DNA of 64,000 bases from Eledone cirrhosa (Eukaryota): contig OZ024743.1 of the NCBI GenBank assembly GCA_964016885.1, positions 358,546,001 through 358,610,000 on the forward strand, in the 5' to 3' direction. Made by a program: the position numbers and the translations under genes. Under the pieces are notes generated by a model. The model was not told the origin of the DNA. It saw nothing but the letters and a program-made list of their open reading frames with translations, and ran no database searches. Shown here one piece after another: positions 6,905 through 51,051 of the stretch; the stretch's first letter is position 1, and the number at the start of each line of letters is the position of its first letter.

Positions 6905-8110
6905 TGTTTTAGTGCTTAGTTCTCCAGTGCATCTTCCACATACAAAGTCTTATCTTTTCTGTTAATCTGCTAGCAATCCCTCTACATCTCTTATACATCC
7001 ATAGATAACAATGTGTGCACCTTACAGAACTACTGTGTGCCTCTTTCTGACATACCTGATGGTATTCTCTTTCCTACTTATTAATACTTTTGTCTTTAAG
7101 TTTACTTTTAGGCCTTTCAACTTTAGGTTCTTCTTCCATGCTTGAATTTTGCTTCTAATCCCCCTACGGATTTAGCTATGAGGACTAGGTCACCAGCATA
7201 TAAGAGCTCCCATTAGGTGCTAGTTTTAAACTTCTCAGTGATGGCCTGATAGACAATGATAAACAGCAGTGGACTGACGACTGAGCCCTGATGGACCCCA
7301 ACCTGCACTTCAAATTCATCACTGTACTTATTTCCAACTCTCACTCTGTTGGTTACTCCTTTATACATGGCTTGCATGGCCCTCACAAGCCATTCTTCTA
7401 TACCTAGCTTCCTAATTGCCCACCAAATTACAGAGCGTGGGACCCTGTCAAAAGCCAGATACAGTGGCTTACTCTTAGCTAAGTACCTCTCTTGTTGTTG
7501 TCTCACCAGAAAGAGGGCATCAGTAGTACTCCTGCTTGGCATAAATTAAAACTGCATCATGTCTAACTTATTTCTGTTCTTAATTAGTTGTGTTGTAACC
7601 CTTTCAGCAAATATTTTGACCTTGTCCTCTATAGTTACTTCTCTCTAGTGCGTTTCCTTTGTCCTTGTAGCAGTTTGCAATGATACTGTTGCACAAGTCA
7701 TTGTGTGCGACCCCTTCCTGTACTACTTGATTAACTGTGTGTCTGACTAGTGCATATCGTACCATGCTAGATGCTTTTAGTATCTCAGCAACTATACCAG
7801 GTGGTCCAGCTGCCTTCCCTACTTTCATGTCTTTAATTGCTTCATCTACCACATTGTTGTCAACTTTTATAGTTGGGTCTGTATGAGGTAGGCCCTCGCT
7901 GTTCCATTTATTCTCTCCATTCAGCAGTCTCATAGTAAGTCTTCCATGCTTAATTCTTTTTAGCATCAGACAGAACAAGTGCTCCACTATCATTTCAATG
8001 CACTTTTCCCCAACCACATCACAATTTTCTCTAACAAACCTTTTGATAACCCCAAACACTTCATGACACAGAACATGAGCAAATTTCTGGAGGAATAATC
8101 TAAATGTCAT
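6905..8110 (-). mobile_element. Decayed RTE-clade LINE RT fragment in putative ZNF2 intron
   Basis: Fragments MKVGKAAGP..GIVAE, ERSNYRG, STTDALFLVRQ, AFDRVPR, VGVHQGSVVSPLLF; stops and frameshifts. Confidence 0.85.
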
Positions 8111-8236: not shown

Positions 8237-8311
8237 ACTGGTATATTGAAAAGTCGAATCTTACCAATTTGTTTCTAGGTATTTTCTCTAACAAACATTA
8301 TTGATGAAAGA

Positions 8312-9430
8312 ATGTTTCAGAAACGGAGTAAACATCACAGCTGTGAAGTTTGTGGGAAAGTATTGTCTACCCACTTTAAATTATTGGCTCACCACCGTAC
8401 TCACACTGGAGAAAAACCATATAAATGTGAAACTTGTGGCAAAGCATTTTCACACCGTGGCTCCTTTTTATCTCATAAACGTGTTCACACAGGAGAAAGG
8501 CCATACCGCTGTGAAATTTGTGGGAAAACATTTACTTATATTGGTCACTTGACAAGACATAGACGGAGTCATACAGGAGAACGACCCTATATTTGTGCAA
8601 TTTGTGGAAAGACATTTCCTGATGTTACACGTTTAGCAGATCATAAACGTATTCATACAGGAGAAAAGCCCTACCAATGTGAATTTTGTGGGAAAGCATT
8701 TACTCTAAAGAATCAGGTAAAAGTTCATAAGCGTATCCACACGGGAGTTAAACCGTATCATTGTGACATTTGTGGGAAATCATTTGCTCAGAATGCCCAT
8801 TTAACGAGCCATAAACGTACTCACACGGGACAAAAATCATTCCACTGCGAAATTTGTGGGAAATCCTTTACCCAAAATAGTAGTTTATCTGTTCATAAAT
8901 ATACTCATTCTCAAGAAAAACTATACAACTGTGAAATTTGTGAGAAAACATTTTCTCATCGCCGTTTATTATCAAATCATGTACGTATTCACACGGGAGA
9001 AAAGCCATACCAATGTGAAACGTGTGGGAAATCATTTCGTAGGAATAGTTCTTTGTCTGTTCATAAACGGAGTCACACAGGTGAGAAGCCTTACCAATGT
9101 GCAATTTGCGGGAAAGCATTTCCTAGGAGTAGTAGCCTTTCAGCTCATGTACGCATTCACACTGGAGAAAAGCCATACCACTGTGAGCTGTGTGGAAAAT
9201 CATTCTCTGGAAAGCGTAGCCTTTCAAACCATCTACATTCTCACACAACAGAAAAACCACATCATTGTGAAATATGTGGAAAAACATATTCTCAGAAACG
9301 TTCTCTAACTATTCACACACGTATTCACACAGGAGAAAACCCTTTCCAATGTGATTTTTGTGGGAAAGGATTTTCTCGAAATAGTTATTTAGTGCATCAT
9401 AAGTGTATTAAGCTTGAAAAAAATCTATAA
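8312..9430 (+). CDS. Poly-C2H2 zinc finger protein (ZNF2-A), 12 canonical fingers + terminal atypical finger
   Basis: 372-aa intact ORF of tandem C2H2 fingers with TGEKPY linkers. Confidence 0.93.
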
Positions 9431-9699: not shown

Positions 9700-10226
9700 A
9701 TAACAGTATATACACACATTATCAACTAGTAACAGTGTATACTTATATATACATACAGTCAACCAATAACTATATACACATTGTCAACAAGTTACAGTAT
9801 ATACATACAGTCAAATGATGATGATCAACTAATAACAGTATATACACACACATTAACAGCCAGTAACATTATATGTATACATTGTCAACTAAAAACACTA
9901 TAGACACACATTGTCAACCAGTAATAGTGTATATATACTTTATCAACCAGTAAGAGTGTATATATACATTGTCAACCTGTAATAGTGTATATATACATTG
10001 TCAACCTGTAATAGTGTATATATACATTGTCAACCTGTAATAGTGTATATATACATTGTCAACCTGTAATAGTGTATAGACACATTGTCAAACAATAACA
10101 GTATAGACACACATTATCAACCATTAACAGTGTATACTTATATATATATATATATACACAGTCAACCAGTAACAGTATATACACACATTGTCAACTACTA
10201 ATAGTATATACATACATTGTCAACTA
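9700..10226. repeat. 29-bp AT-rich minisatellite, copy A
   Basis: Unit attgtcaacctgtaatagtgtatatatac; consecutive starts at 9968, 9997, 10026 and 10055; degenerate flanks. Confidence 0.9.
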
Positions 10227-10302
10227 AGTGTATTCAGTCATATTTATTACAGTAAAGTTTGTGGAAAATAATTTCTTCAAATTATTAATTTAACTCATAA
10301 AC

Positions 10303-10849: not shown

Positions 10850-13800
10850 GTTCTCTTAATCTTTAGTACGGTAGTAATTTTTATGAGTTGTTTCCCTTGG
10901 CACTGCATTGTCTATTAAGGGGAGATTACTCATATGGTTCATTTTGCTGCTGCGTGCTGAAGGTTAAGCCTATTGTTTACAACCTTCAGAACATCATCCC
11001 AGCCCTAGTGTTCCTCGGACTTCAAACTAACTTGTCCAAGTCAGAGGTGATGTGAGTTACAGCAAAACTCAGTCCATTCCAACTGGGGCAAGTTGTACTG
11101 CTAGCTCGATGCTGGAAATGCTTTCCGGCTAGAGCTGCAAAACCGATTCCAAATGCTGAGTAACGAAGTGGAACAGCAACCGGAGCAAGAGTGGAACACG
11201 CTCAGGGCGGCGACGGTGAGGTTGCCAGGGAGCATCTCGGGTCGACCCGAAGACGCCATCGGGACTGGATCTCCAGCGGCACTCTTGAACTCGCAGAGAG
11301 GGCGAGAGTGGCCCGACTCAAGGGTGCATCCATTCTTCGAGATCTCCGACGTCACACATCTCGGGCTATTCGGGCTGATCGGAATGCACACTGGCGCGAG
11401 TTTGCAGAGCAGACGAAGAGGGCAGCAGCCTGTGGTGACTTGCGCAAGCTCCACCAACTGGTGAAGCGGGCCAGCCAAAGCAGTACGGGTATCAGCGAGA
11501 CGATCCGTGATCGGAACGAGGCGGTCATTACTAATCTTAATGACCGGCTAGTCCGATGGCGGGACCATTTCTCCGAGCTGCTCAACCACCCGCCACCATC
11601 CACGCCAACCTACGTGCAGCCTTCCGGAGAAGAATACGGGTGCAGCACTGCCCCTCCAATGGTCGAGGAGGTACGTGGTGTCCTGACACATCTCCGGAAC
11701 AACAAGGCGCCGGGCGAGGATGGTATTCCAGCTGATGTCTACAAGGCTGAACCTGATGTCTTCACAGCTTGGCTCCATCGAGTCTTCTCGGTGTGGGCGA
11801 CGGATGGTTCCCTGGTAACTGGAGCGAGGCAACTCTCCTACCCTTCAAAAGGGCGACAGGAAACTGTGTTCCAACTACAGGGGTATCAGTTTAATTGATG
11901 TTGCTGCCAAGACCTTCGCAATTCTTCTGCTAAAGAGGTTCCAGGCCATCCGTGATGTCTGTACCCGTCCTTCTCAGGGCAGCTTCCATCCGGGGAGGGG
12001 TTGTGTTCATCAAATCTTCATTCTCCGGCATGTCCTGGAACAACAGTGGGCACATCAACAGCCTACCATCCTCTGCTTCATTGAATTTGCAGCTGCCTTC
12101 GACTCGGTAGATTGGGAAGCCCTATGGCGTATAATGCAGTCAGACGGCATCCCAGTGAAGCTGCTTCGTCTCATACAGGGCTACTACCGGTCGACTCGGG
12201 CTCGAGTGAGGGTCTATGGTGGGGGGACAGTCGTTCGATGTTGGGACAGGTGTCCAGCAGGGGTGTGCGCTATCGCCAACTCTCTTTAACTACGCCATTG
12301 ACTACACTCACAGCGCTCTGGGATTACCCGGGCGTAGAGGTCGGGAGAGGGGTCGTGGTGACGGACCTGGCCTACGCGGATCACATCGTGCTGATGGGCG
12401 CTAACGGGACAGATGTAAAGGGTGCACACTGCAGCCGCCGCTGTTGGTCTACAAATCAATGCCGCCAAGTCAAAGGTCATGATGTCACTGGTCTCGCCTG
12501 ATGCCTGGCAGCCAATATCTCTCGAGGGCGTGGACCTGGGGGATGTGGAGTCCGTTTACCTGGGCTCAACAGTGGTTCCAACGGGACAGGGCGCAGCCGA
12601 GGTCAAGCGTCGCATAGGTGCTGCCAGATCCGCTTTTGGGCGCCTACAGCAGTGTCTGTGGGACAGAAGAGAGATCACCTCGGCGACCAAAGGGCGAATC
12701 TACCAGGCCGTCGTTCGCACTGTCCTCTATGGCTGTGAAACATGGCCTATGAGGGTAGTCAATCAATGAAGGCTGGAGGTCTTCGACAATGACTGTCTCC
12801 GCCACATTCTTCGCTGCCGACGCGTTGATCGGGTACCTACCACCAGTCTTCGTCTTCGCATGAATCTTCGACCGCTTCCTTCAGTGCTGCTGCAACGGCG
12901 CTTGAGATGGTTTGGTCACGCGGCCCGGCGCCCTGAGGGTGAACTGATCCGTGATGTTCTCCTACCTCCACTCCCTATATGGCGCAAGCGTGTTGGCGGG
13001 CAGCTGAAGACCTGGGCAACGACGATCAAGGAGGGCCTCTCCGAACTCTCAGGTCCGCAGGTGGTCGGCCTGCGCCAATGGAACCGTGACTGGCTTGCTA
13101 TCTCCAGTGACCTAGCCCGGGACCGTCGTACGTGGGCTGCCATCAGGACAAGAGAAGAAGCCGGCTCAACCCGTCCAGGGTGAATGTCGACACAAGTACA
13201 AGTAAGTTGTACTGCAAGGGATGATGCTAACATTCTCAACTCTCTAATCTTGAAAGTCATATGAGAATGTCTGGAGGCCAAATAAGCTAACCTAGCAAGG
13301 ACGATAGATTATGTCTCATCAATGTGCATCACATGTTATTCCTCCTGAGGAACTGCTTCACCCTCTCCAAACCTCTCTTTATGTTGTGCAGTACACCTCA
13401 TCATCCTCATGTGGGATATCTGAGCAAACTTGATGCTATCTTCTGTCGCTGCACCAAACTTATTTGCAATGTTAGTTTCAACAATGCCAGCTAACAACAT
13501 GAGAAATTCTCCATGAGGTCCAGTAGTCTAGGCCTCCGTGCAAAATCTGACCTTGCCCTACCGGTCTATCAATCATTCATCATCTGGTGCCCTCGCATGA
13601 GTGAAGTTCTCTGCAAGACATTGGAACCAAATGCAGACTAGGAACTTGAGCCAGCTCTGACTATTTGTGTTGATGGCCTTGCTGTCTTCCTGTATGCAGG
13701 ATACCTATACTACTGGGATGACATTAGGTGCATTTCAACCTGAATGTGAATTGAGTCTTCCTTTAACCAACACAGTCTAGTCTGCCTTGCAATCAAACAG

Positions 13801-23442: not shown

Positions 23443-25927
23443 ATATAATAATAATAATAATGAAATATTGTGTACAGTGCTCAGGTGCACTACAACTCAT
23501 CAAAAAGTGTATGTATAGTACATAGGGTAATTTACAAACGTCAGGAAAATGAACAGTGCATGAGTCATGATATACACGTGTGCATGCGTATGGAAGGGGT
23601 ACATCAGGTGTAGTTTTGGCGAATTTCGGGAAGCATGAGGGTTTTAAAGGATGCAGTGTCTCGGCAGCTAATAACTGACACATGCAGTTTGTTCCATGCT
23701 TCAGTAACTCTGAGCGTGAAAAAATGTTTCAGAAAGTCATGGGAGCTGTGCTGTTTTCTGATTTTGGAGGGATGTCCACGTGTGTTAGACACATGGACAT
23801 CAAAAAAGGTGCTCAGGGTTGTTGTTGGCGAGATGGTTAATAACTTTGTGGGTGTTTACCAAGTCCATTGCCAGACGGAGCTTCAATGAATCCATGCCCA
23901 TGGAAGCAAGGCGTTCAGAGTATGGTAGGTGTCTGATGGAGGGTATGCGCTTGGTTGCATGTCTCTGAACAGTTTCCAGGCGGTCAATGTTCTTAGCAAG
24001 ATAGGAGTTCCAGACTGATGATGCGAATTCCAAGTGTGGTCGTACCATAGCTGTATACAGCTTTAGATAGATGGCTGGAGAGCAGCTCACAAAGGTCTTG
24101 CTGAGTGATGCCAAGACACCCTCGGCCTTCTTGACAATCCTAGAGACATGCTTTGTTCAACGCAAATCGCTGCTGACACAAATGCCCAGTAACGTTCACA
24201 AGAGGACTTCTTGATATCAGTGTTGTGGAGGGAGTATGTGGACGCTGGATTTTTCCTTCCAAAATGCATGGTGGTACACTTGTCCACAGCCAGCTTCAGT
24301 TGCCAGTCTGTGATGCATTGTGTCCAGGTCTGATTGTAGGAAAGAGTTGTAGATTTCAGGATCAGTCTTTTTGATTTCAAGGTACATCTGCATATTTCAG
24401 TACTGTGGCATTCTTTAAGTTGGCATCTATGTCATTAATATATGCCACAAACAAAAGGGGACCAAGAATAGATCCCTGTGGTACACCAGATGACATCTCA
24501 TGGTGAAGAATGCTGACCTAGAACCGTGACTACCTCTTTTCGGCTGATAATGAAGGATTTCAACCAGTTAAAAAGATCATCCCTCACACCCATTGCAGAG
24601 AGTTTTGTCACAAGTCTTTTGTGTGGCACAGAATTAAAAGCCTTAGCGAAGTCAAGGTAAACAACATCCACCCATGAGCCGCTGTCAGTGATCCGGGTAA
24701 TGTCTTCAAGGAACTCGATAAGCTGATCACAGCAGCTGGAGTTAGGGATAAATCCAAACTGCGAGGGCCAGATGAGGTTGTGAGAGCTCCAGAAGTTCCA
24801 AAGTGTTTCTCTGACACAGGATTCCATCAGTTTTCAGTTTGGCAATACAGCTAGTAAGACTGACTGGACGATAGTTGACAGGTGACATGCGGTCACCCTT
24901 TTTGAACAGGGGAATGACATTGGCAGTTTTCCACTGCTCCAGAGTAGCACCATTGTTGAGACAGTATTGAAAAAAAGAAAGAAAGCTGGTGCAAAAGGAA
25001 GTACCCGCCAGATTTGAGAAGCAGGTATGTAACACCATCAAGACCAGGGGAGGCATAGTCGCGCTTATTCTTAAGCTGACGTCGCAACATTGCAGGTGTA
25101 AATTCGATAGTTCTTATGGAATTTGATGTTGGAGATGGTACATTCTGGTTTTCAACAGTAAAAATGCTTGCATAGCACTCAGCAATGAGTTTTGCGCATT
25201 CTTTGGGATCGTCAGTGATCTGGCTTGTGTGGAGATTGCGAAGAGGACCAACTGGAGAGTGAGGTCTCTGCTTTGAATGAACATATTTCCAGAACACCTT
25301 ACTGTCAGGATTGGTTGTAATGCACTGTTCAAATTCAAGCACTGCCTTTTTTGTCACTTGCTTGAGATGGTTGGAAGATCTATTCCCCTTTTTTCTGTTG
25401 GCATCTGATTCATGCAGTTTATATTCCTGTTCAGCGTTCCAACGTTCTTTCCTGGCAAGTCGGACCGCTGAAGTTTCCCAAATTGCATTTTTGGGGTGGG
25501 GTTTTTCTGCTTACGTGGCACTGATGCTGCACACGCTATCCATATTGAGTCCATGATGCTCTGGAGTATAGTGTTCACATCTCCAGAGTTATAGAACTCA
25601 TGCCAGTTTGGGCGCTATAGCTCAGTGCAGTACAAGTTCCAATCAAAGCAAGCAGATTGGAGATGGTTCTGGTTTTTGTTGCTGCCCACAAGAGCCAGAT
25701 TGGCAATGATCAGAGTCGCCTAGAGGTTCCTCAGTAGTACAACTGATAACCACTTCAGGAGTAGTGATGAAGATCAGGTCCAAAGTGTTGTCACCTCTTG
25801 TTGGAGAGGTGACTACTTGTGACCAGTTTCAGTCCAGCACTAGCTCAAGGAAATCGTTTGCACTTTGTGGCCAACGAAAGGTTTCCCAATCGATCTCAGG
25901 ATCATTGAAGTCACCTGCAATAAACAC
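23443..25927 (-). mobile_element. 5'-truncated CR1-like LINE, copy B
   Basis: IAGDFNDPEIDW (APE), IPLFKKGDR..PVNYRPVSLTS, YLDFAKAFNSVPH, VRPHLEFASSVWN, FFTLRVTEAWNKL; (ATT)n tail; absent from unit A at ~3378. Confidence 0.9.
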
Positions 25928-27341
25928 ATATGAAGCCAGGTGATTAAAAATCCAAAGTTGACATTTGTAACTGTTGATTTAAAGGCCCTCATGATCGAGT
26001 TCTTCAACCATATTCACTGTAGCGAGAACCCTATATGGGGGTTTCCCAAACAAACATCAAGGTATGTCATTCAGATCCCAGTCTATCAGTGTCATCAACA
26101 CCTAGTGCAAATAGAACAGGCCTAGAGGGGTCTCTGATTCCTGATGTGGAAAGAAGATTGGGAAGGCTCTCAATATGTCCTCCAAGCAAAATGGTAGAGC
26201 TCCGAGGTCCTCTCACAGATCTGAGGATGACATCACTCCCTATAGAATTGAATGACTTCTTGAGATGGAGTTTGAGGGCCTCAGGGGTGTTAGTAAATGT
26301 TCTCGTGGCATGGACGGTTATTTCACACCCTAATTTTTCGCCCACTCCCAACTGAACAAAGTAAAATTCCGAGATGTAGTGTGAGACTGATAATTCCGCA
26401 AACGCTTTCCATAAGGCGTCTAAAAGTGCACTATACAACAATGAGGCGAAAGTCACCATTTGACTTCATATGACTGAACAGTTTAGCGTCGAAGAACAAA
26501 GGGAGGATACTCTCAGAAGAGACCGTGTTCAAATGATTTAAAAAAACACTCATTCTGTGATATTTTGCTGAGATGTTTATATATTCTTTTCGGTACTAGA
26601 TAGTCCTTCTAGTGTCTCTCTTAACAAATTGTATCTTTTTAAATCTTTGTTTTTCTCCATAATGATAATTTTTACTATGAGCACGTTTTTTTTAGGGTAA
26701 GTGGCAATATTAAAACATTTTTGCGTGTCAAGTTCGCCTCAATTGAGCAGGCTCACTATTAAAGACATTCTAAGCGTGACCATTTCTTCTTTAGAGAAAC
26801 AATGTATCTAGTATTACATTATTGAATGTGTTCTTTCCCTCTTGAAATAAAGCAGGGTAACTATTTTTAACAGGTCGAATGACCATGTAGAAGCTCCCTT
26901 GGTGTCACATGCATGGATGGTATTGACATTTATTTATTTAATCAATTTAAACATCCGTGTAAATTTAGTAAACCATAACAGATTGGGAGAGGTATTTAAT
27001 AATCCTTATAATTAAGAAACAAAAACGGAGGCAAATGAAACAACAATAGCCGGTTGGTCATATAGCGAGAGTACTGGGTTGTATGAATGTAACAAAACGA
27101 GGCATGGTTTGTGTGTATAATATTTAATTAACAATGGTAGATAGTATAGTTGTCATGTCAAAGAAATAGATGATAGAATGAAACAAAGTTAGTCGTTACC
27201 GTTTTGATTGCCAGGCAAACGCGGCTGGCAGAGGACGCCTGGCTAAGGCCAGGCCAAATGAGAGGCAGAGAGCCGAGAGCTATTCGTTTTATAGGGCTCT
27301 GCTGGAAGTTACAGAAAGGGTTCTACTTCCCGTCTAGACGT

Positions 27342-29615
27342 CACCAAATTCCGGTCAGGAAGGAGGATATTCCGAAAACTGCAATTACAACCCCTTTCGG
27401 ATCATTCGAATTTTTGACCATGCCTTTCGGACTCAGGAACGCCGCTAGCACTTTTCAGCGGTTCATAGACGAGGTCACGCGTGGTCTGGACTTCGTCTAT
27501 GCTTACATAGACGATATTCTCGTCGCTAGTTCCTCTCCGGAAGAGCATATGCGCCACATGCTTCTCTTACTTCGGCGACTTCAGGATTACCGCGTTCGCG
27601 TGAATCCTGCAAAGTGTGTTTTCGTTTCCACTTCCCTACATTTTTTAGGCCACCTCATCGACGCCGAAGGTATTAGGCCGCTCCCTGAGCGAGTTCAAGC
27701 CATACAGGAGTTACCGCCGCCTACTACACTTAACCAGTTGCGTCACTTCTTAGGCCTAATCAATTTCTATAGGCGTTTCATTCCTCATTGTGCTAATTGG
27801 CTATCTTCCCTTACTGACATTTTTAAAAAACGTCGTAAGAAGAATGAAGACATTTCCTTGACACAAGGACAGCTTCAGGACTTCCAGTCTGCCAAGACAG
27901 CCCTCGCTAGTTCTTCTTTGCTAGCCCACCCGGTACCAGAGGCCAAGCTTTCGCTTTGTGTTGATGCATCTGATACCGCTGTGGGAGCAGTTTTACAGCA
28001 GTCTTACGCTGAAAACCAACAACCTTTGGCATTTTTCTCGAGGAAGTTGAAACCAGCAGAAACGCGTTATAGCACGTTTGGGCGGGAATTATTAGCCATA
28101 TATCTGTCGGTGAAACATTTCTCTCATATCCTTGAGGGGAGAAATTTTACGGTTTTTACCGACCACAAACCGTTGACCTTCGCTTTGAGGGCCAAAGCCG
28201 ACAGATATTCGCCCAGAGAGACAAGATACCTGGACTACGTTTCACAATTTACAAACGATATCCAGCACATTGCCGGCTCGCACAACATAGTTGCAGACGC
28301 ATTATCTCGTTTGCCAATTAGCTCCATCTCGTCATCCCAGGATATCGATTTAGGTCGTTTAGCTGCAGACCAACCTGCACTCCAATCGTTGGACACTCTT
28401 TCTACCGAATTTGCGACTTGCATTTTCAAATATCTGCCCTTGTCCACCACCGACAGGCAGATCCTTTGTGATGTATCCACTGATGCACCACGACCACTTG
28501 TTCCTGAGACTCACCGTCGAATAGTGTTTCTGGCTCTGCACAACATTTCTCATCCAAGATCTGCTGCCACAGTTAAACTCATAACAGCCAGATTCTTCTG
28601 GCCTAATATGAGGCGCGACATTGCTGTTTTTTGCCGTTCCTGTATCGCTTGCCAGAAATCGAAGATCCATAGACACATCCGGACTCCACTGGATACTTTC
28701 ACCACTCCAGATGCCCGGTTCCAACACATCCACATTGACATCGTTGGACCTTGGCCATTCAGCAGTGGATATTCCTACATATTGACGTGTGTCGATCGTT
28801 TTTCGCGATGGCCTGAAGCTATCCATTTACAAGACATGACTGCCGAGACTGTAGCACGTGCCCTGGTATCAGGGTGGATTACCCGCTTTGGGGTACCAAC
28901 TACACTCACCACAGACCGCGGTAGACAATTCGAGTCCCATCTCTTCTCTGAGCTCACCAAAATAATTGGAGCTCAACGGATTCGAACCACGGCCTATCAT
29001 CCTGCTTCAAATGGAATGGTGGAACGATTCCACCGCCAATTAAAGGCCGCTCTTCGCGCCTATCCAGACTCTCAACGTTGGAGCGAGTACCTTCCTATTG
29101 TGTTATTAGGAATTCGGTCATCAATAAAGGAGGACCTTGGGTTCTCCCCGGCCGAATTAATTTACGGTGCTCCTCTAGCGTTGCCTGGGCAAATGCTTGC
29201 CCCTGTTGATCTTGCTTTCCAAGATCCGCTTTCCTACGTATCCCGTCTGCGTTCTTATTTACAGGACCTGCCGCCGATGGATACGAGGAAGCAAACTGTA
29301 AAACATGCGGTCCCAAGGGACATTGCCTCGTGGACCCATGTGTTCGTAAGGAACGATGCTGTGAGACCACCCCTCACACACCCATACTCTGGACCCTACC
29401 GTGTGTTAGCACGCACTGATAAACATTTCACTGTAGACATTAAGGGGTCCAGAGAGACAATTTCGGTGGATAGACTGAAAAGGGCACACAATGACGCTCA
29501 TACACCCGAGCCACAAATACCCCAATCTTTCACCATTGTGCACACACCTGCTCCTTCTGCCCCACCTTCACCTACATACAAGACTACGACCCGTTCCGGT
29601 CGGAGAGTCCACTAG
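27342..29615 (+). CDS. Gypsy pol remnant: partial RT, RNase H, integrase (no internal stops)
   Basis: HQIPV...KTAITTPFG...MPFGLRNA...YIDDIL (RT); [23 protein letters not shown] (RH); H-H-C-C and HIDIVGP...[10 protein letters not shown]...NGMVERFHR (IN); GPY motif. The ORF track start at 27204 lies in non-coding LTR sequence. Confidence 0.9.
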
Positions 29616-35285: not shown

Positions 35286-36429
<1,144 letters not shown>

Positions 36430-36699: not shown

Positions 36700-37366
36700 A
36701 TAACAGTATATACACACATTATCAACTAGTAACAGTGTATACTTATATATACATACAGTCAACCAATAACTATATACGCATTGTCAACGAGTTACAGTAT
36801 ATACATACAGTCAAATGATGATGGTGATGATCAACAAATAATAACATTATATACACACACATTATCAACCAGTAACATTATATGTATACATTGTCAACTA
36901 AAAACACTATAGACACATATTGTCAACCAGTAATAGTGTATTTATACATTGTCAAACTGTAATAGTGTATACATACATTGTCAACCTGTAATAGCGTATA
37001 TATACTTTGTCAACCAGTAATAGTGTATATATACATTGTCAACCTGTAATAGTGTATACATACTTTGTCAACCAGTAATAGTGTATATATACATTGTCAA
37101 CCTGTAGTAGTGTATATATACAGTCAACCAGTAATAGTGTATATATACATTGTCAACCTCTAACAGTGTATATTTATAGTTATATACACATTTTGTCAAA
37201 CAATAACAGTATAGACACATGTCAAACTAAAAACACTATAGACACACATTATCAACCATTAACAGTGTATACTTATATATATATATATATACACACAGTG
37301 TCAACCAGTAACAATATATACACACATTGTCAACTACTAATAGTATATACATACATTGTCAACTAA
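36700..37366. repeat. 29-bp minisatellite, copy B
   Basis: Same unit as 9700-10226; longer array. Confidence 0.9.
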
Positions 37367-38293
37367 TAAGTGTATTCAGTCATATTTACTACAGTAAAAT
37401 TTGTGGAAAATAATTTCTTCAAATTATTAATTTAACTCATAAACATCATCATCATCATCATCATCAATGATTAACGTCTATCTTCCATGCTCGCATGGGT
37501 TAGACATGTTTGTACCATTTAGAGACATGTTGGGTCAATTGACCGTATCTTGCTCATATAAGACTGTTTCTGGCTGGATGCCCTTCCTAATGACAACCAC
37601 ATTTACAGTGTATGCTGGGTGCTTTTTGCCGTGTCTTGTACACGACCACTTTACAGTGTGTAACACAAAACAAACAAAAATGTATCTGTGCATTTTGTCA
37701 CCAAAATTTTCAAATGCAAATTAATAGCGTTAGGCATGACCATATTTGTAAAGACGTGTCAGAGATGGGTTCATTTAATACTCTCTGGTGTTTCTCTCTT
37801 ACAGGACATCTAGCATACTCTCTGTTGCTGGCAACATTATTACATCTGTTACAAGTCTCCAGCAAGATAACCTACTCTGTTTACTCTTCCTTTGTGTTGG
37901 CTGTTAATAACATTGTCAACTCAGTCCATTTGCTTTTCAATGTCTTGTAACTGGATGATATGACACTGTGGTTCTCTTAATCTTTAGCACGGTAGTAATT
38001 TTTATGAGTTGTTTCCCTTGACACTGCATTGTCTATTAAGGGGAGATTACTCATAGGATGCATTTTGCTGCTGCGTGCTGAAGGTTACAACCTTCAGAAC
38101 ATCATCTCAGCCCTAGTGTTCCTCGGACTTCAAACTAACTTGTCCAAGTCAGAGGTGATGTGAGTTACAGCAAAACTCAGTCCATTCCAACTGGGGCAAG
38201 TTGTACTGCAAGGGATGATGCTAACATTCTCAACTCTCTAATCTTGAAAGTCATATGAGAATGTCTGGAGGCCAAATAAGCTAACCTAGCAAG

Positions 38294-40763: not shown

Positions 40764-43219
40764 ATATAATAATAATAATAATGAAATATTGTGTACAGTG
40801 CTCAGGTGCACTACAACTCATCAAAAAGTGTATGTATAGTACATAGGGTAATTTACAAACGTCAGGAAAATGAACAGTGCATGAGTCATGATATACACGT
40901 GTGCATGCGTATGGAAGGGGTACATCAGGTGTAGTTTTGGCGAATTTCGGGAAGCATGAGGGTTTTAAAGGATGCAGTGTCTCGGCAGCTAATAACTGAC
41001 ACATGCAGTTTGTTCCATGCTTCAGTAACTCTGAGCGTGAAAAAATGTTTCAGAAAGTCATGGGAGCTGTGCTGTTTTCTGATTTTGTAGGGATGTCCAT
41101 GTGTGTTAGACACATGGAGATCAAAAAAGGTGCTCAGGGTTGTTGTTGGCGAGATGGTTAATAACTTTGTGGGTATTTACCAAGTCCATTGCCAGACGTC
41201 GGAGCTTCAATGAATCCATGCCCATGGAAGCAAGGCGTTCAGAGTATGGTAGGTGTATGATGGAGGGTATGCGCTTGGTTGCATGTCTCTGAACAGTTTC
41301 CAGGTGGTCAATGTTCTTAGCAAGATAGGAGTTCCAGACTGATGATGCGAATTCCAAGTGTGGTCGTACCATAGCTGTATACAGCTTTAAATAGATGGCT
41401 GGAGAGCGGCTCACAAAGGTCTTGCTGAGTGATGCCAAGACACCCTCGGCCTTCTTGACAATCCTAGAGACATGCTTTGTTCAACGCAAATCGCTGCTGA
41501 CACTAATGCCCAGTAACGTTCACAAGAGGACTTCTTGATATCAGTGTTGTGGACGCTGGATTTTTCCTCCCAAAATGCATGGTGGTACACTTGTCCACAG
41601 CCAGCTTCAGTTGCCAGTCTGTGATGCATTGCTGCATTGTGTCCAGGTCTGATTGTAGGAAAGAGTTGTAGATTTCAGGATCAGTCCTTTTGATTTCAAG
41701 GTACATCTGCATATTTCAGTACCGTGGCATTCTTTAAGTTGGCATCTATGTCATTAATATATGCCACAAACAAAAGGGGACCAAGAACAGATCCCTGTGG
41801 TACACCAGATGACATCTCATATGGTGAAGAATGCTGTCCTAGAACCGTGACTACCTATTTTCGGCTGATAATGAAGGATTTCAACCAGTTAAAAAGATCA
41901 TCCCTCACACCCATTGCAGAGAGTTTTGTCACAAGTCTTTTGTGTGGCACAGAATTAAAAGCCTCTGTCAGTGATCCGGGTAATGTCTTCAAGGAACTCG
42001 ATAAGCTGATCACAGCAGCTGGAGTTAGGGATAAATCCAAACTGCGAGGGCCGGATGTGGCTGTGAGAGCTCCAGAAGTTCCAAAGTGTTTCTCTGACAG
42101 GATTCCATCAGTTTTCAGTTTGGCAATACAGCTAGTAAGACTGACTGGACGATAGTTGACAGGTGACGTGCGGTCACCCTTTTTGAACAGGGGAATGACA
42201 TTGGCAGTTTTCCACTGCTCCAGAGTAGCACCATTGTTGAGACAGTATTGAAAAAAAGAAAGAAAGCTGGTGCAAAAGAAAGTACCCGCCACATTTGAGA
42301 AGCAGGTATGTAACACCATCAAGACCAGGGGAGGCATAGTTGCGCTTATTCTTAAGCTGACGTCGCAACATTGCAGGTGTAAATTCGATAGTTCTTATGG
42401 AATTTGATGGTGGAGATGGTACATTCTGGTTTTCAACAGTAAAAATGCTTGCATAGCACTCAGCAACGAGTTTTGCGCATTCTTTGGGATCGTCAGTGAT
42501 CTGGCTTGTGTGGGGATTGCGAAGAGGACCAACTGGAGAGTGAGGTCTCTGCTTTGAATGAACATATTTCCAGAACACCTTACTGTCAGGATTGGTTGTA
42601 ATGCACTGTTCAAATTCAAGCACTGCCTTTTTTGTCACTTGCTTGAGATGGTTGGAAGATCTATTCCCCTTTTTTCTGTTGGCATCTGATTCATGCAATT
42701 TATATTCCTGTTCAGCGTTCCAACGTTCTTTCCTGGCAAGTCGGACCGCTGAAGTTTCCCAAATTGCATTTTTGGGGTGGGGTTTTTCTGCTTACGTGGC
42801 ACTGATGCTGCACACGCTATCCATATTGAGTCCATGATGCTCTGGAGTATAGTGTTCACATCTCCAGAGTTATAGAACTCATGCCAGTTTGGGCACTATA
42901 GCTCAGTGCAGTACAAGTTCCAATCAAAGCAAGCAGATTGGAGATGGTTCTAGTTTTTGTTGCTGCCCACAAGAGCCAGATTGGCAATGATCATAGCATG
43001 ATCAGAGTCGCCTAGAGGTTCCTCAGTAGTACAACTGATAACCACTTCAGGAGTAGTGGTGAAGATCAGGTCCAAAGTGTTGTCACCTGTTGTTGGAGAG
43101 GTAACTACTTGTGACCAGTTTCAGTCCAGCACTAGCTCAAGGAAATCGTTTGCACTTTGTGGCCAACGAAAGGTTTCCCAATCGATCTCAGGATCATTGA
43201 AGTCACCTGCAATAAACAC
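40764..43219 (-). mobile_element. CR1-like LINE, copy C
   Basis: Same insertion site and sequence as 23443-25927. Confidence 0.9.
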
Positions 43220-47570: not shown

Positions 47571-47777
47571 ATAATCTAAATGTCATACAGAATTTATCCT
47601 TAAGCTGTATTGTAGTTCACTCCATTGCCTTATATGGAAGTAGATTCATCTATTACCAATAATATACTGTATTTCCAGGTACACTCTTAAATTTGTTTTC
47701 TTTAATTTCAGGACTGGTATATTGTAAAGTCGAATCTTACCAATTTGTTTCTAACAAACATTATTATTGATGAAAGA

Positions 47778-48464
47778 ATGTTTCAGAAACGGAGTAAACA
47801 GCACAGCTGTGAAATTTGTGGGAAAGTATTGTCCTCCCACTGTAAATTATTGGCTCACCACCGTACTCACACTGGAGAAAAACCATATAAATGTGAAACT
47901 TGTGGCAAAGCATTTTCACACCATGGCTCCGTTTTATCTCATAAACGTGTTCACACAGGAGAAAGGCCATACCGTTGTGAAATTTGTGGGAAAACATTTA
48001 CTTTTAATGGTCACTTGACAAGACATAGACGGTGTCATACAGGAGAACGACCCTATGTTTGTGCAATCTGTGAAAAGACATTTACTGATGTTACACATTT
48101 AACAGATCATAAACGTATTCATACAGGAGAAAAGCCCTACCAATGTGAATTTTGTGGGAAAGCATTTACTCTAATGAATCAGGTAAAAGTTCATAAGCGA
48201 ATCCATACGGGAATTAAACCGTATCATTGTGACATTTGTGGGAAATCATTTGCTCAAAATGCCCATTTAACGGGCCATAAACGTACTCACACAGGAGAAA
48301 AATCATTCCACTGCGAAATTGGTGGGAAATCCTTTACCCAAAATAGTAGTTTATCTGTTCACACGGGAGAAAACCCTTTCCAATGTGATTTTTGTGGGAA
48401 AGGATTTTCTCGAAATAGTTATTTAGTGCATCATAAGTGTATTAAGCTTGAAAAAAATCTATAA
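47778..48464 (+). CDS. ZNF2-C: shortened in-frame paralog (6 intact fingers, broken finger 7, terminal finger)
   Basis: 228 codons from ATG; 432-nt in-frame deletion relative to ZNF2-A joins SLSVH to TGENPFQC; acceptor at 47711 retained. Confidence 0.7.
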   Translation: MFQKRSKQHSCEICGKVLSSHCKLLAHHRTHTGEKPYKCETCGKAFSHHGSVLSHKRVHTGERPYRCEICGKTFTFNGHLTRHRRCHTGERPYVCAICEKTFTDVTHLTDHKRIHTGEKPYQCEFCGKAFTLMNQVKVHKRIHTGIKPYHCDICGKSFAQNAHLTGHKRTHTGEKSFHCEIGGKSFTQNSSLSVHTGENPFQCDFCGKGFSRNSYLVHHKCIKLEKNL

Positions 48465-48735
48465 TACTCTGACATTTACATAAAAAATAAAAATCTCTTT
48501 CTTTTTAAATGTAATTTACAAGTTAGGTTCACCAGAGAGAAATTGTGAAACAATTATTTTATAATTGTTTCACAATTGATCTTAATGTATAAGGTCCTTC
48601 TTTGTAAACCATACTTATTTTAACAAGTATTTGCTCTAAACAGGATTCATTCATCTGGTGAATATCCTACTGCAGAAATTAGAAATATATTCACAAGTAT
48701 GGAAATAATTATGTGTTTCTTTATCTTAAGTCCAA

Positions 48736-49460
48736 TAACAGTATATACACACATTATCAACTAGTAACAGTGTATACTTATATATACATACAGTCAACCA
48801 ATAACTATATACACATTGTCAACGAGTTACAGTATATACATACAGGCAAATGATGATGATGATGATCAACAAATAATAACACTATTTACACACACATTAT
48901 CAACCAGTAACATTATATGTATACATTGTAAACTAAAAACACTATAGACACATATTGTCAACCAGTAATAGTGTATATATACATTGTCAACCTGTAATAG
49001 TGTATATATACATTGTCAACCTGTAATAGTGTATATATACATTGTCAAACTGTAATAGTGTATACATACATTGTCAACCTGTAATAGCGTATATATACTT
49101 TGTCAACCAGTAATAGTGTATATATACATTGTCAACCTGTAATAGTGTATACATACTTTGTCAACCAGTAATAGTGTATATATACATTGTCAACCTGTAG
49201 TAGTGTATATATACAGTCAACCAGTAATAGTGTATATATACATTGTCAACCTCTAACAGTGTATATTTATAGTTATATACACATTTTGTCAAACAATAAC
49301 AGTATAGACACATGTCAAACTAAAAACACTATAGACACACATTATCAACCATTAACAGTGTATACATATATATATATATATATACACATACTGTCAACCA
49401 CTAACAATATATACACACATTGTCAACTACTAATAGTATATACATACATTGTCAACTAAT
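48736..49460. repeat. 29-bp minisatellite, copy C
   Basis: Same unit; longest array. Confidence 0.9.
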
Positions 49461-51051
49461 AAGTGTATTCAGTCATATTTACTACAGTAAAATTTGTGGA
49501 AAATAATTTCTTCAAATTATTAATTTAACTCATAAACATCATCATCATCATCATCATCATCAATGATTAACGTCTATCTTCCATGCTCGCATGGGTTAGA
49601 CATGTTTGTACCATTTAGAGACATGTTGGGTCAGGTGACCGTGTCTTGCTCATATAAGACTGTTTCTGGCTGGATGCCCTTCCTAATGACAACCACATTT
49701 ACAGTGTATGCTGGGTGCTTTTTGCTGTGTCTTTTACACAACCACTTTACAGTGTGTAACACAAAACAAACAAAAATGTATCTGTGTGCATTTTGTCACC
49801 AAAATTTTCAAATGCAAATTAATAGCGTTAGGCATGACCATATTGTAAAGACGTTTCAGAGATGGGTTCATTTAATACTCTCTCTGGTGTTTCTCTCTTA
49901 CAGGACATCTAGCATACTCTCTGTTGCTGGCAACATTATTACATCTGTTACAAGTCTCCAGCAAGATAACCTACTCAGTTTACTCTTCCTTTGTGTTGGC
50001 TGTTAATAACATTGTCAACTCAGTCCATTTGCTTTTCAATGTCTTGTAACTGGATGATATGACACTGTGGTTCTCTTAATCTTTAGCACGGTAGTAATTT
50101 TTATGAGTTGTTTCCCTTGACACTGCATTGTCTATTAAGGGGAGATTACTCATATGGTGCATTTTGCTGCTGCGTGCTGAAGGTTAAGCCTATTGATTAC
50201 AACCTTCAGAACATCATCCCAGCCCTAGTGTTCCTCGGACTTCAAACTAACTTGTCCAAGTCAGAGGTGATGTGAGTTACAGCAAAACTCAGTCCATTCC
50301 AACTGGGGCAAGTTGTACTGCAAGGGATGAGGCTAACATTCTCAACTCTCTAATCTTGAAAGTCATATGAGAATGTCTGGAGGCCAAATAAGCTAACCTA
50401 GCAAGGACGATAGATTATGTCTCATCAATGTGCATCACATGTTCTTCCTCCTGAGGAACTGCTTCACCCTCTCCAAACCTCTCTTTATGTTGTGCAGTAC
50501 ACCTCATCATCCTCATGTGGGACATCTGAGCAAACTTGATGCTATCTTCTGTCGCTGCACCAAACTTATTTGCAATGTTAGTTTCCACAATGCCAGCTAA
50601 CAACATGAGAAACTCTCCATGAGGTCCAGTAGTCTAGACCTCCATGCAAAATCTGACCTTGCCCTACAGGTCAATCAATCATCCTGTCCCAGTGCATAGG
50701 TTCCTGCAGGCTTCTGATGCTTTCTTACCTCTTTTAAAATACAAAAGCATGATTTTTGAGGGTTAAGATAAATGCACAAAATACAACCAATCTTGTCAGA
50801 GTTTCGCTATGAGCTACTTAGAAGTATCTAGTATCTAATGAGTGCATACTCAGGAGGAAGAAAGTAAAGTTAGCAACTACAAGAGCGTCTTAAGATTAAT
50901 ATTGGCAAATACTAAATTGGTGACCAAATTAACAATGGAGGTGGGTGTTCTGAAAATGCAGTAGCCAGAGTAAAAATGGGATGGAAAATGTTTGAGAAGC
51001 TACTACCGTTGCTAGCTACAAAAGGTTTTTCCTTCAAAATGAAAGGCAGAT

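What the first reader, a model, noticed from the sequence alone, without database searches (positions are those of the whole stretch)
11090..13215. GC-rich RTE LINE out of place in this genome: horizontal-transfer candidate
Seen: a 2.1-kb insertion with a perfect 12-bp TSD, present only in unit A and therefore younger than the duplication. It is very GC/CpG-rich (40 of 60 bases are G/C in 11221-11280) and unlike the AT-rich resident RTEs at 6905, 15040 and 53350. From memory (unverified), its C-terminus RRPEGELIRDVLLP...GGQLKTWATTIK...LSGPQVVG...DRRTWAA...GSTRPG resembles RTE pol-related proteins of liver flukes (Clonorchis/Opisthorchis). Known: RTE-clade LINEs such as BovB are recurrently transferred horizontally, and trematodes parasitise molluscs. 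The empty paralogous sites argue against contamination.
Basis: partly seen in the sequence, partly recalled or inferred. Interest (0 to 1): 0.72.

Follow-up and report, generated by a model that had tools for sequence, protein, structure and literature searches.

The report
Young octopod LINE recording RNA edits
The insertion is a dead, front-truncated copy of a young jumping-gene family whose closest named relatives are in cuttlefish rather than flukes, so a fluke origin is unlikely, but its sub-lineages differ mostly by one-stranded A/G changes that are likely RNA edits copied into DNA and passed on.

Summary
Observation confirmed: 2,102-bp insertion, 12-bp target duplication, empty sites at 38198 and 50310, GC 57% against 37%. 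It is a 5'-truncated, frameshifted copy of a 3.47-kb RTE-type family (FAM1); 95 fetched copies lie 2-6% from their majority: one burst. The host looks octopod (7-unit haemocyanins). Closest named relatives are Sepia pharaonis proteins (65%), flatworm ones 37-49%. FAM1 groups with Sepia (99/98); grouping with flatworms is rejected (AU p at most 6e-5). A second GC-rich family of the clade lives in the genome. A fluke donor is unsupported. Transfer from an unsampled host stays open (about 0.3): no older subfamily found, CpG o/e 0.96 against 0.08 in an old resident RTE, and an unnamed 81% sister. Unexpected: shared variants are 24 A/G against 4 C/T on the sense strand, mostly synonymous, with a 3' G preference, absent in two control families; one such change makes a G run that expands and shifts the frame. 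Likely ADAR edits inherited through active masters; direction is only partly shown. The scan already noted ADAR-type hyper-edited LINE copies elsewhere in this genome.

The parts
11090..11101 (+). 5' target-site duplication AAGTTGTACTGC
11102..13203 (+). 5'-truncated RTE-type LINE copy (FAM1): starts at family position about 1305 of 3474, lacks the 5' UTR and endonuclease; one non-templated T at the 5' junction; 11 deletions (54 bp)
11103..13183 (+). broken single ORF (linker, reverse transcriptase, C-terminal part) in six frame pieces, 69-100% identical to unnamed full-length P0002 in five pieces and 46% in the first, which runs over the junction
13184..13203 (+). short 3' UTR and tail of (CAAGTA)n-type repeats, as in other copies
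13204..13215 (+). 3' target-site duplication
11229..12922 (+). G alleles at shared A/G sites (11229, 11249, 11400, 11677, 11718, 11851, 11911, 12178, 12475, 12540, 12922): the copy belongs to the G-rich sub-lineage
38198..38209 (+). empty paralogous site, unit B
50310..50321 (+). empty paralogous site, unit C

Best explanation
The insertion is a dead, 5'-truncated copy of a young, multi-copy RTE-type LINE family whose closest named relatives are in cuttlefish, so its lineage is likely at home in coleoid cephalopods rather than imported from a fluke, and its sub-lineages likely differ through ADAR A-to-I edits that reverse transcription fixed in DNA. Steps: (1) shown: a 3.47-kb single-ORF family spread in one burst; (2) inferred from TSD, tail and truncation: this copy entered unit A by target-primed reverse transcription at about the time unit A split from B and C; (3) inferred: the lineage reached this octopod by descent at low copy number or from another cephalopod; (4) shown: shared variants are strand-biased A/G and mostly synonymous; (5) inferred: each round through RNA adds roughly one A-to-G edit, edited daughters become new masters, and selection removes most damaging edits; (6) shown: where CGA-GGG reads CGG-GGG the G run is often expanded and out of frame; inferred: the A-to-G change came first.
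For: Family: 45 matches from 315 candidates (40 scored) at 86-96% besides the window copy; 95 distinct loci at K2P 0.024-0.062, mean 0.041; star-like tree, terminal length 1.81 against internal 0.049; variable 5' ends, TSDs of 11-14 bp in several full-length copies. Relatives: Sepia pharaonis P0295 and P0369 at 65-66%; cestodes 47%, Trichobilharzia 49%, Dicrocoelium 39%, Schistosoma 37%. Tree: FAM1+P0002 99/98, with both Sepia rows and P0384 99/98; AU rejects FAM1+P0002 with Trichobilharzia (1e-8), cestodes (2e-6), Dicrocoelium+Schistosoma (6e-5) (same placement with 57 rows). FAM1-P0295 path 0.50 changes per site against an octopus-decapodiform split of about 275 Mya (PMC9068888, passage); that this fits descent is my inference. 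FAM2 in the same genome is also GC- and CpG-rich (0.51, 1.06); Sepia and cestode relatives have GC-type residues G+A+R+P 0.30-0.31 against 0.25 in the old resident RTE. Editing: non-CpG variants at frequency of at least 0.12 in the 3' ORF are 24 A/G against 4 C/T (p 2e-4); synonymous third positions 18 of 269 against 3 of 337 (p 1.5e-4); 3' neighbour G in 12 of 18 against 29% (p 0.001); rare A>G 339/40,183 against T>C 281/43,270 (p 0.001); with all CpG-forming sites dropped 18 against 4 (p 0.005). The other five substitution pairs are strand-symmetric (ratios 0.90-1.02). Controls: FAM2 7 against 7 (28 loci); old resident RTE 40 against 21 on 619 purine and 411 pyrimidine sites, as expected (28 loci). 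18 of 24 shared sites are synonymous against 113 of 454 possible (p 4e-7). On the FAM1 stem 10 of 34 polarised amino-acid changes are A>G-type against 5 of 58 on the P0002 branch (p 0.017). G run: of 38 copies 15 keep A at normal length, 10 have G at normal length, 13 are expanded (10 out of frame); none of the 14 G-rich-lineage copies keeps A.
Against: No older FAM1 subfamily was found: of 29 loci checked 17 are FAM1 and 12 FAM2; of 50 further loci (some overlapping earlier ones) 49 are FAM1 at 89.6% or more and 1 matches neither. A lone burst is what an invader looks like, though searches score only the best 95-150 candidates. Majority CpG o/e is 0.96 against 0.08 in the old resident RTE. 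No listed hit was named Octopus. The nearest relative (P0002, 81%) has no host on record. The wider clade's other named eukaryote members are flatworms, and FAM1 and FAM2 are not sisters (AU 2e-10). On editing: 6 of the 24 sites have G as majority and mostly lack the 3' G context; automatic polarising of 22 shared non-synonymous sites gave G>A 8, C>T 4, A>G 3 (I re-read two, 1253 and 1429, as A-ancestral from outgroup lysine codons, and several G>A and C>T rows are low-frequency and look like decay); 7 of 34 stem changes are G>A-type; 5' G depletion is not significant (p 0.13), 3' G among synonymous sites only borderline (p 0.055); predicted pairing not significant (p 0.10); no hyper-edited cluster (at most 5 in 150 nt); G-rich copies are not younger (p 0.60). 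Classing expanded runs as G is partly circular.
Confidence: 0.55

Rival explanations
1. FAM1 is a recent horizontal invader from an unsampled non-cephalopod marine animal (prey, parasite or neighbour), and the Sepia relatives reflect older or separate invasions from the same reservoir.
For: Single burst with no older relatives in the loci checked; CpG o/e 0.96 against 0.08; two distant GC-rich families of one clade, each a single burst; unnamed 81% sister and many unnamed intact relatives; RTE transfer among aquatic animals is documented (PMC13155389, abstract and passages; PMC8967140, passages).
Against: Nearest named relatives are cephalopod; the stem shows an A>G-type excess, as expected after time in an editing host (weak); no donor sequence found; one search lists no second organism.
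Confidence: 0.3
2. The donor was specifically a trematode or cestode, for example a marine flatworm that uses octopods as host (host relation recalled, not tested).
For: Named members of the 38-row clade outside the cephalopod group are cestodes and a bird schistosome; marine flatworm genomes may be poorly sampled (my assumption).
Against: Identity only 37-49%; AU tests reject all three flatworm groupings; no Clonorchis or Opisthorchis hit listed.
Confidence: 0.1
3. The A/G bias is not editing but a biased error of this family's reverse transcriptase or of second-strand synthesis (G opposite T, T opposite G), or chance among a few masters.
For: Both A>G and G>A shared variants occur; direction only partly polarised; weak 5' context and pairing signals; human L1 RNA was not found edited by ADAR1 in the regions sequenced (PMC5224506, passages).
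Against: 3' G preference; FAM2, 56% identical in protein, shows no bias; ordinary DNA mutation in masters would give C>T and G>A equally; coleoids edit repeat-derived RNA widely (PMC9068888, abstract and passages).
Confidence: 0.35

Closest known systems
RTE-clade LINEs of coleoid cephalopods (RTE-BovB type in PMC8967140 and PMC9068888; RTE-2_OV of Octopus vulgaris in PMC9115989; passages read)
   Same: Single ORF with AP endonuclease and reverse transcriptase, short-repeat 3' tail, recent lineage-specific burst; relatives in Sepia pharaonis
   Different: GC 58% and CpG o/e near 1; only 28% identical to the old resident RTE family of the window; ORF about 1,035 aa against 1,109 aa with a zinc finger for RTE-2_OV; identity with any published family not tested
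Perere-3/Sr3 RTEs moved between schistosomes and snails (Brann et al. 2026, PMC13155389; abstract, outline and passages)
   Same: RTE of about 3.2-3.5 kb; a flatworm-mollusc setting
   Different: That case has near-full-length nucleotide matches and low dS; here flatworm proteins are 37-49% identical and rejected as sisters; the paper's main text does not mention octopus, cephalopod or Sepia
APOBEC DNA editing fixed in LTR retrotransposons (Knisbacher and Levanon, PMC4866542; passages)
   Same: Strand-biased, context-dependent deamination marks left in genomic copies
   Different: There G-to-A clusters in single vertebrate LTR copies; here sparse A/G differences in a non-LTR element, shared between copies and filtered towards synonymous sites, so passed through active masters

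Membership tests
RTE-clade non-LTR retrotransposon | Single ORF with AP endonuclease followed by reverse transcriptase | tested here: met
   P0002 (81% to FAM1) has PF03372/PF14529 and PF00078; FAM1 copy L028 has the endonuclease; window copy has RVT_1; P0002 aligns over residues 18-1035 of full-length copies
RTE-clade non-LTR retrotransposon | Short element (about 3.2-3.6 kb) without a separate ORF1 | tested here: met
   Family length 3,474 bp, coding match starts at about 370; RTE-BovB mean 3,583 bp in PMC10294476 (passage)
RTE-clade non-LTR retrotransposon | 3' tail of short tandem repeats, TSD, variable 5' truncation | tested here: met
   (CAAGTA)n tails, TSDs, graded 5' ends
RTE-clade non-LTR retrotransposon | RT phylogeny with reference elements (RTE-1, BovB, SR2) | not testable with these tools
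   No labelled reference elements were returned; the clade label rests on anatomy and recalled knowledge
Horizontal transposon transfer from a flatworm | Element tree conflicts with host tree (sister to flatworm elements) | tested here: not met
   Groups with Sepia 99/98; AU p 1e-8 to 6e-5 against flatworm groupings
Horizontal transposon transfer (any donor) | Sequence similarity or dS to a donor beyond that of host orthologues | not testable with these tools
   No DNA or host for P0002; no eukaryote genome panel
Horizontal transposon transfer (any donor) | Patchy distribution among relatives | tested here: inconclusive
   Only organism A; no Octopus-named protein among listed hits; Sepia has relatives
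Horizontal transposon transfer (any donor) | Integrated in the host, not contamination | tested here: met
   TSD, empty paralogues, copies on many large contigs, present in reads of other samples
ADAR A-to-I signature | A/G excess on the transcribed sense strand only | tested here: met
   24 against 4 shared sites; rare variants p 0.001; controls flat
ADAR A-to-I signature | Direction A to G | tested here: inconclusive
   Supported at 699, 1253, 1429, 1879, 2771 and the G-run site; 6 sites have G majority; automatic tally mixed
ADAR A-to-I signature | 3' G enriched and 5' G depleted (preference recalled) | tested here: inconclusive
   3' G 12 of 18, p 0.001 (synonymous only p 0.055); 5' G 3 of 18, p 0.13
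ADAR A-to-I signature | Sites lie in double-stranded RNA | tested here: inconclusive
   Local pairing 0.61 against 0.54, p 0.10
ADAR A-to-I signature | Editing seen in RNA against matched DNA | not testable with these tools

The most novel reading that the evidence does not exclude
In this octopod, RNA editing is the main heritable mutator of an active LINE lineage: ADAR edits made on the element's RNA are written into DNA, pass selection in daughter masters, define the subfamilies, and at one site create a G run whose slippage breaks descendants. The family may be a recent GC-rich invader meeting cephalopod ADAR.
Probability: 0.4. Interest if true: 0.7.

Novelty: new member of a known kind. 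Interest (0 to 1): 0.4.

Why it matters
As a transfer case it adds little: no donor is found and RTE transfer in aquatic animals is documented. The side result matters more. If the shared A/G sites are edits, RNA editing is feeding heritable, selected change in a working retrotransposon, not only scarring dead copies. It would give a dated record of germline ADAR activity in a cephalopod and a direct way to test whether editing restrains or diversifies LINEs.

Tried and rejected
Fluke donor: rejected on identity and AU tests. Unique foreign copy or contamination: rejected. Apparent fixed 5' end of the matches: an artefact of the query, most copies run further 5'. A cluster of 5' ends near family position 1,170-1,220: likely set by my fetch windows, not used. 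JGI metagenome scan: 18 loci, best full-length 41%, uninformative. Atlas look-up with P0295: generic RT clusters under 0.9, no use for taxonomy. Sequencing-run search: no RNA holder listed; it used 3,700 bases of L002, 1,500 of them flank. Laying reads on L006 showed only the 40 best-supported rows, nearly all reversions, and did not test intermediate-frequency A/G sites. Homoplasy of A/G sites (85 of 105 pairs four-gamete incompatible; 2-12 parsimony steps) was not used as evidence of recurrent editing, because the tree is unresolved and a C/T site behaves alike. No hyper-edited FAM1 copy among 95. Literature: searches listed no paper whose title or abstract start reports this family or RTE transfer between cephalopods and flatworms; searches listed none on ADAR edits inherited through LINE masters. 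These cover open-access text only, and no supplements were read (Brann et al.'s list of 298 organisms may include cephalopods).

Full report
Observation. The 12-mer AAGTTGTACTGC flanks a 2,102-bp insert at 11090 and 13204 and occurs once, with joined flanks, at 38198 and 50310. The insert has GC 0.574 and CpG o/e 0.82 against 0.374 and 0.47 for the rest of the window. It encodes a broken reverse transcriptase with 11 deletions relative to its family. Short-read contigs of the same organism hold the empty-site joint and cover the element deeply. The empty sites place the insertion on unit A's line. The clock cannot separate insertion from duplication: 2.9% predicted from 27 changes against 2.3% observed.

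Host. Haemocyanin genes with seven functional units (five such runs among 39 matches) indicate an octopod or Nautilus, since decapodiforms have eight (PMC4491423 and PMC3945787, passages). The C2H2 zinc-finger arrays of the window and the 3.0-Gb size make an octopod my inference.

The family. A search of the own genome gave 45 matches from 315 candidates, 40 scored. Most copies extend further 5', so the window copy is truncated. I fetched 100 loci, dropped 5 duplicates and mapped 95: length 3,474 bp, GC 0.584, GC3 0.63, K2P to the column majority 0.024-0.062. The tree of the 59 longest is star-like. Read depth suggests roughly 200 copies at the 3' end, but the tool warns that depth is no copy number. 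The longest open frame in the first 30 loci is 671 aa; no intact copy was seen there. Of 29 further loci 17 are FAM1 and 12 belong to a second family, FAM2; of 50 more, some overlapping earlier ones, 49 are FAM1 at 89.6% or more and one matches neither. No intermediate, older subfamily appeared, with the limit that each search scored only its best 95-150 candidates.

Relatives. The best is an unnamed intact 1,035-aa protein, P0002 (81%), with endonuclease and RT domains. Then come unnamed decayed copies (64-84%), two Sepia pharaonis proteins (65-66%), unnamed intact proteins (52-61%), and named flatworms: Trichobilharzia 49%, Sparganum and Spirometra 47%, Dicrocoelium 39%, Schistosoma 37%; the gastropod Batillaria 35%. 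I looked up names for 30 proteins only. A quick tree of 57 rows and a careful tree of 20 rows place FAM1 with P0002, inside a group with both Sepia proteins (99/98). Holding FAM1 and P0002 together with any of three flatworm sets is rejected (AU 1e-8, 2e-6, 6e-5), and so is pairing with FAM2 (2e-10).

Is it out of place? Against the old RTE of the window's units it is: that family is 11.7% diverged, GC 0.45, CpG o/e 0.08 and 28% identical in protein. But FAM2 is also GC- and CpG-rich (0.51, 1.06; 5.3% diverged), and Sepia and cestode relatives have GC-type amino-acid make-up. So composition marks the clade. It could still mean that the clade keeps re-entering cephalopods from a reservoir. RTE transfer between schistosomes, snails and other aquatic animals is published (PMC13155389), and a study of coleoid repeats favours vertical bursts without excluding transfer of RTE-BovB (PMC8967140, passages). 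I put a coleoid-resident lineage (descent or cephalopod-to-cephalopod) at about 0.6, another marine donor at 0.3 and a flatworm at 0.1.

Strand-biased variants. All substitution pairs are strand-symmetric except A>G against T>C (2.17-fold; first noted, before I consulted earlier findings). The excess sits mainly in shared sites: 24 A/G against 4 C/T, robust to thresholds of 0.10-0.20 and to removing CpG-forming sites. It holds at synonymous third positions (18 of 269 against 3 of 337). Eighteen of 24 are synonymous where 25% would be by chance, so they passed through elements under selection. The 18 sites with A as majority or near half favour a 3' G (12 of 18). Rare variants show a smaller excess (1.3-fold), under one extra change per copy. 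FAM2 and the old RTE show no bias, with 28 loci each and so less power. DNA mutation in masters would give C>T and G>A alike, so an RNA- or RT-level process is needed (inference). ADAR is the best candidate because coleoids edit repeat RNA widely (PMC9068888). Against it: direction is clear at about six sites only, six sites have G as majority, the automatic tally is mixed, the 5' context and pairing tests are not significant, and no cluster was found. The FAM1 stem also leans to A>G-type replacements (10 of 34 against 5 of 58, p 0.017; 92 of 190 differences polarised). At family position about 1,178, 15 of 38 copies keep CGA at normal length, 10 read CGG at normal length, and 13 have an expanded G-rich run, 10 of them out of frame. 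The window copy carries the G-rich haplotype but is truncated 3' of this run.

Earlier scan notes report ADAR-type hyper-edited LINE copies elsewhere in this genome. They are unchecked AI notes and not support; they describe private clusters, whereas here the changes are sparse, shared and selected.

Verdict. A real, ordinary TPRT insertion of a young RTE-type family, new as a family. Transfer from a fluke is not supported, and transfer from an unknown host is open. The inherited A/G bias is the more interesting feature and is about 0.55-0.6 likely to be ADAR editing. Interest 0.4.

Noticed in passing
L159-L169, L171, L178-L207 (for example G000:C1:86034526-86036219): Second GC/CpG-rich RTE family of the same wider clade (FAM2), 56% identical to FAM1 in protein, about 5% diverged, tail CAAGAA-type, 55-57% to cestode proteins; 54 candidates.
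   Followed up: partly
FAM1 position about 1,170-1,190 (for example L014, L018, L024, L003): G-run expansions of 4 to 21 bases, some interrupted by T or A, at the end of the endonuclease domain.
   Followed up: partly
window 27177-29615 (+): 812-aa ORF that reads like the RT-RNase H-integrase of a Ty3/gypsy LTR retrotransposon (label from recalled motifs), in unit B only.
   Followed up: no
window 8279-9430, 35286-35891, 47706-48464: Paralogous C2H2 zinc-finger exons: 383 aa open in unit A, ending at 201 aa in B, 252 aa with fewer fingers in C; the insertion lies 1.7 kb downstream of the unit A exon.
   Followed up: no
window 24386-25510 (-) and 41705-42791 (-): Decayed RT fragments of another LINE clade present in units B and C.
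   Followed up: no
window 9700-10230, 36700-37400, 48730-49470: 29-bp minisatellite in each unit, with varying copy number.
   Followed up: no
G000:C1:173.74-173.91 Mb; C26:21.93-22.02 Mb (L238, L239): Five haemocyanin genes of seven units each, three in tandem and two as an inverted pair, plus two units on C27.
   Followed up: no
L150, L151, L152: FAM1 copies with inverted segments, as from twin priming or later rearrangement.
   Followed up: no
proteins P0013 and P0117: RTE proteins filed under bacterial MAGs (Pseudomonadota, Ca. Thiodiazotropha), likely animal DNA in the bins.
   Followed up: no
L001 (window copy): CpG decay is 11% in this copy against 7.7% for the family, suggesting a more methylated neighbourhood.
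   Followed up: no
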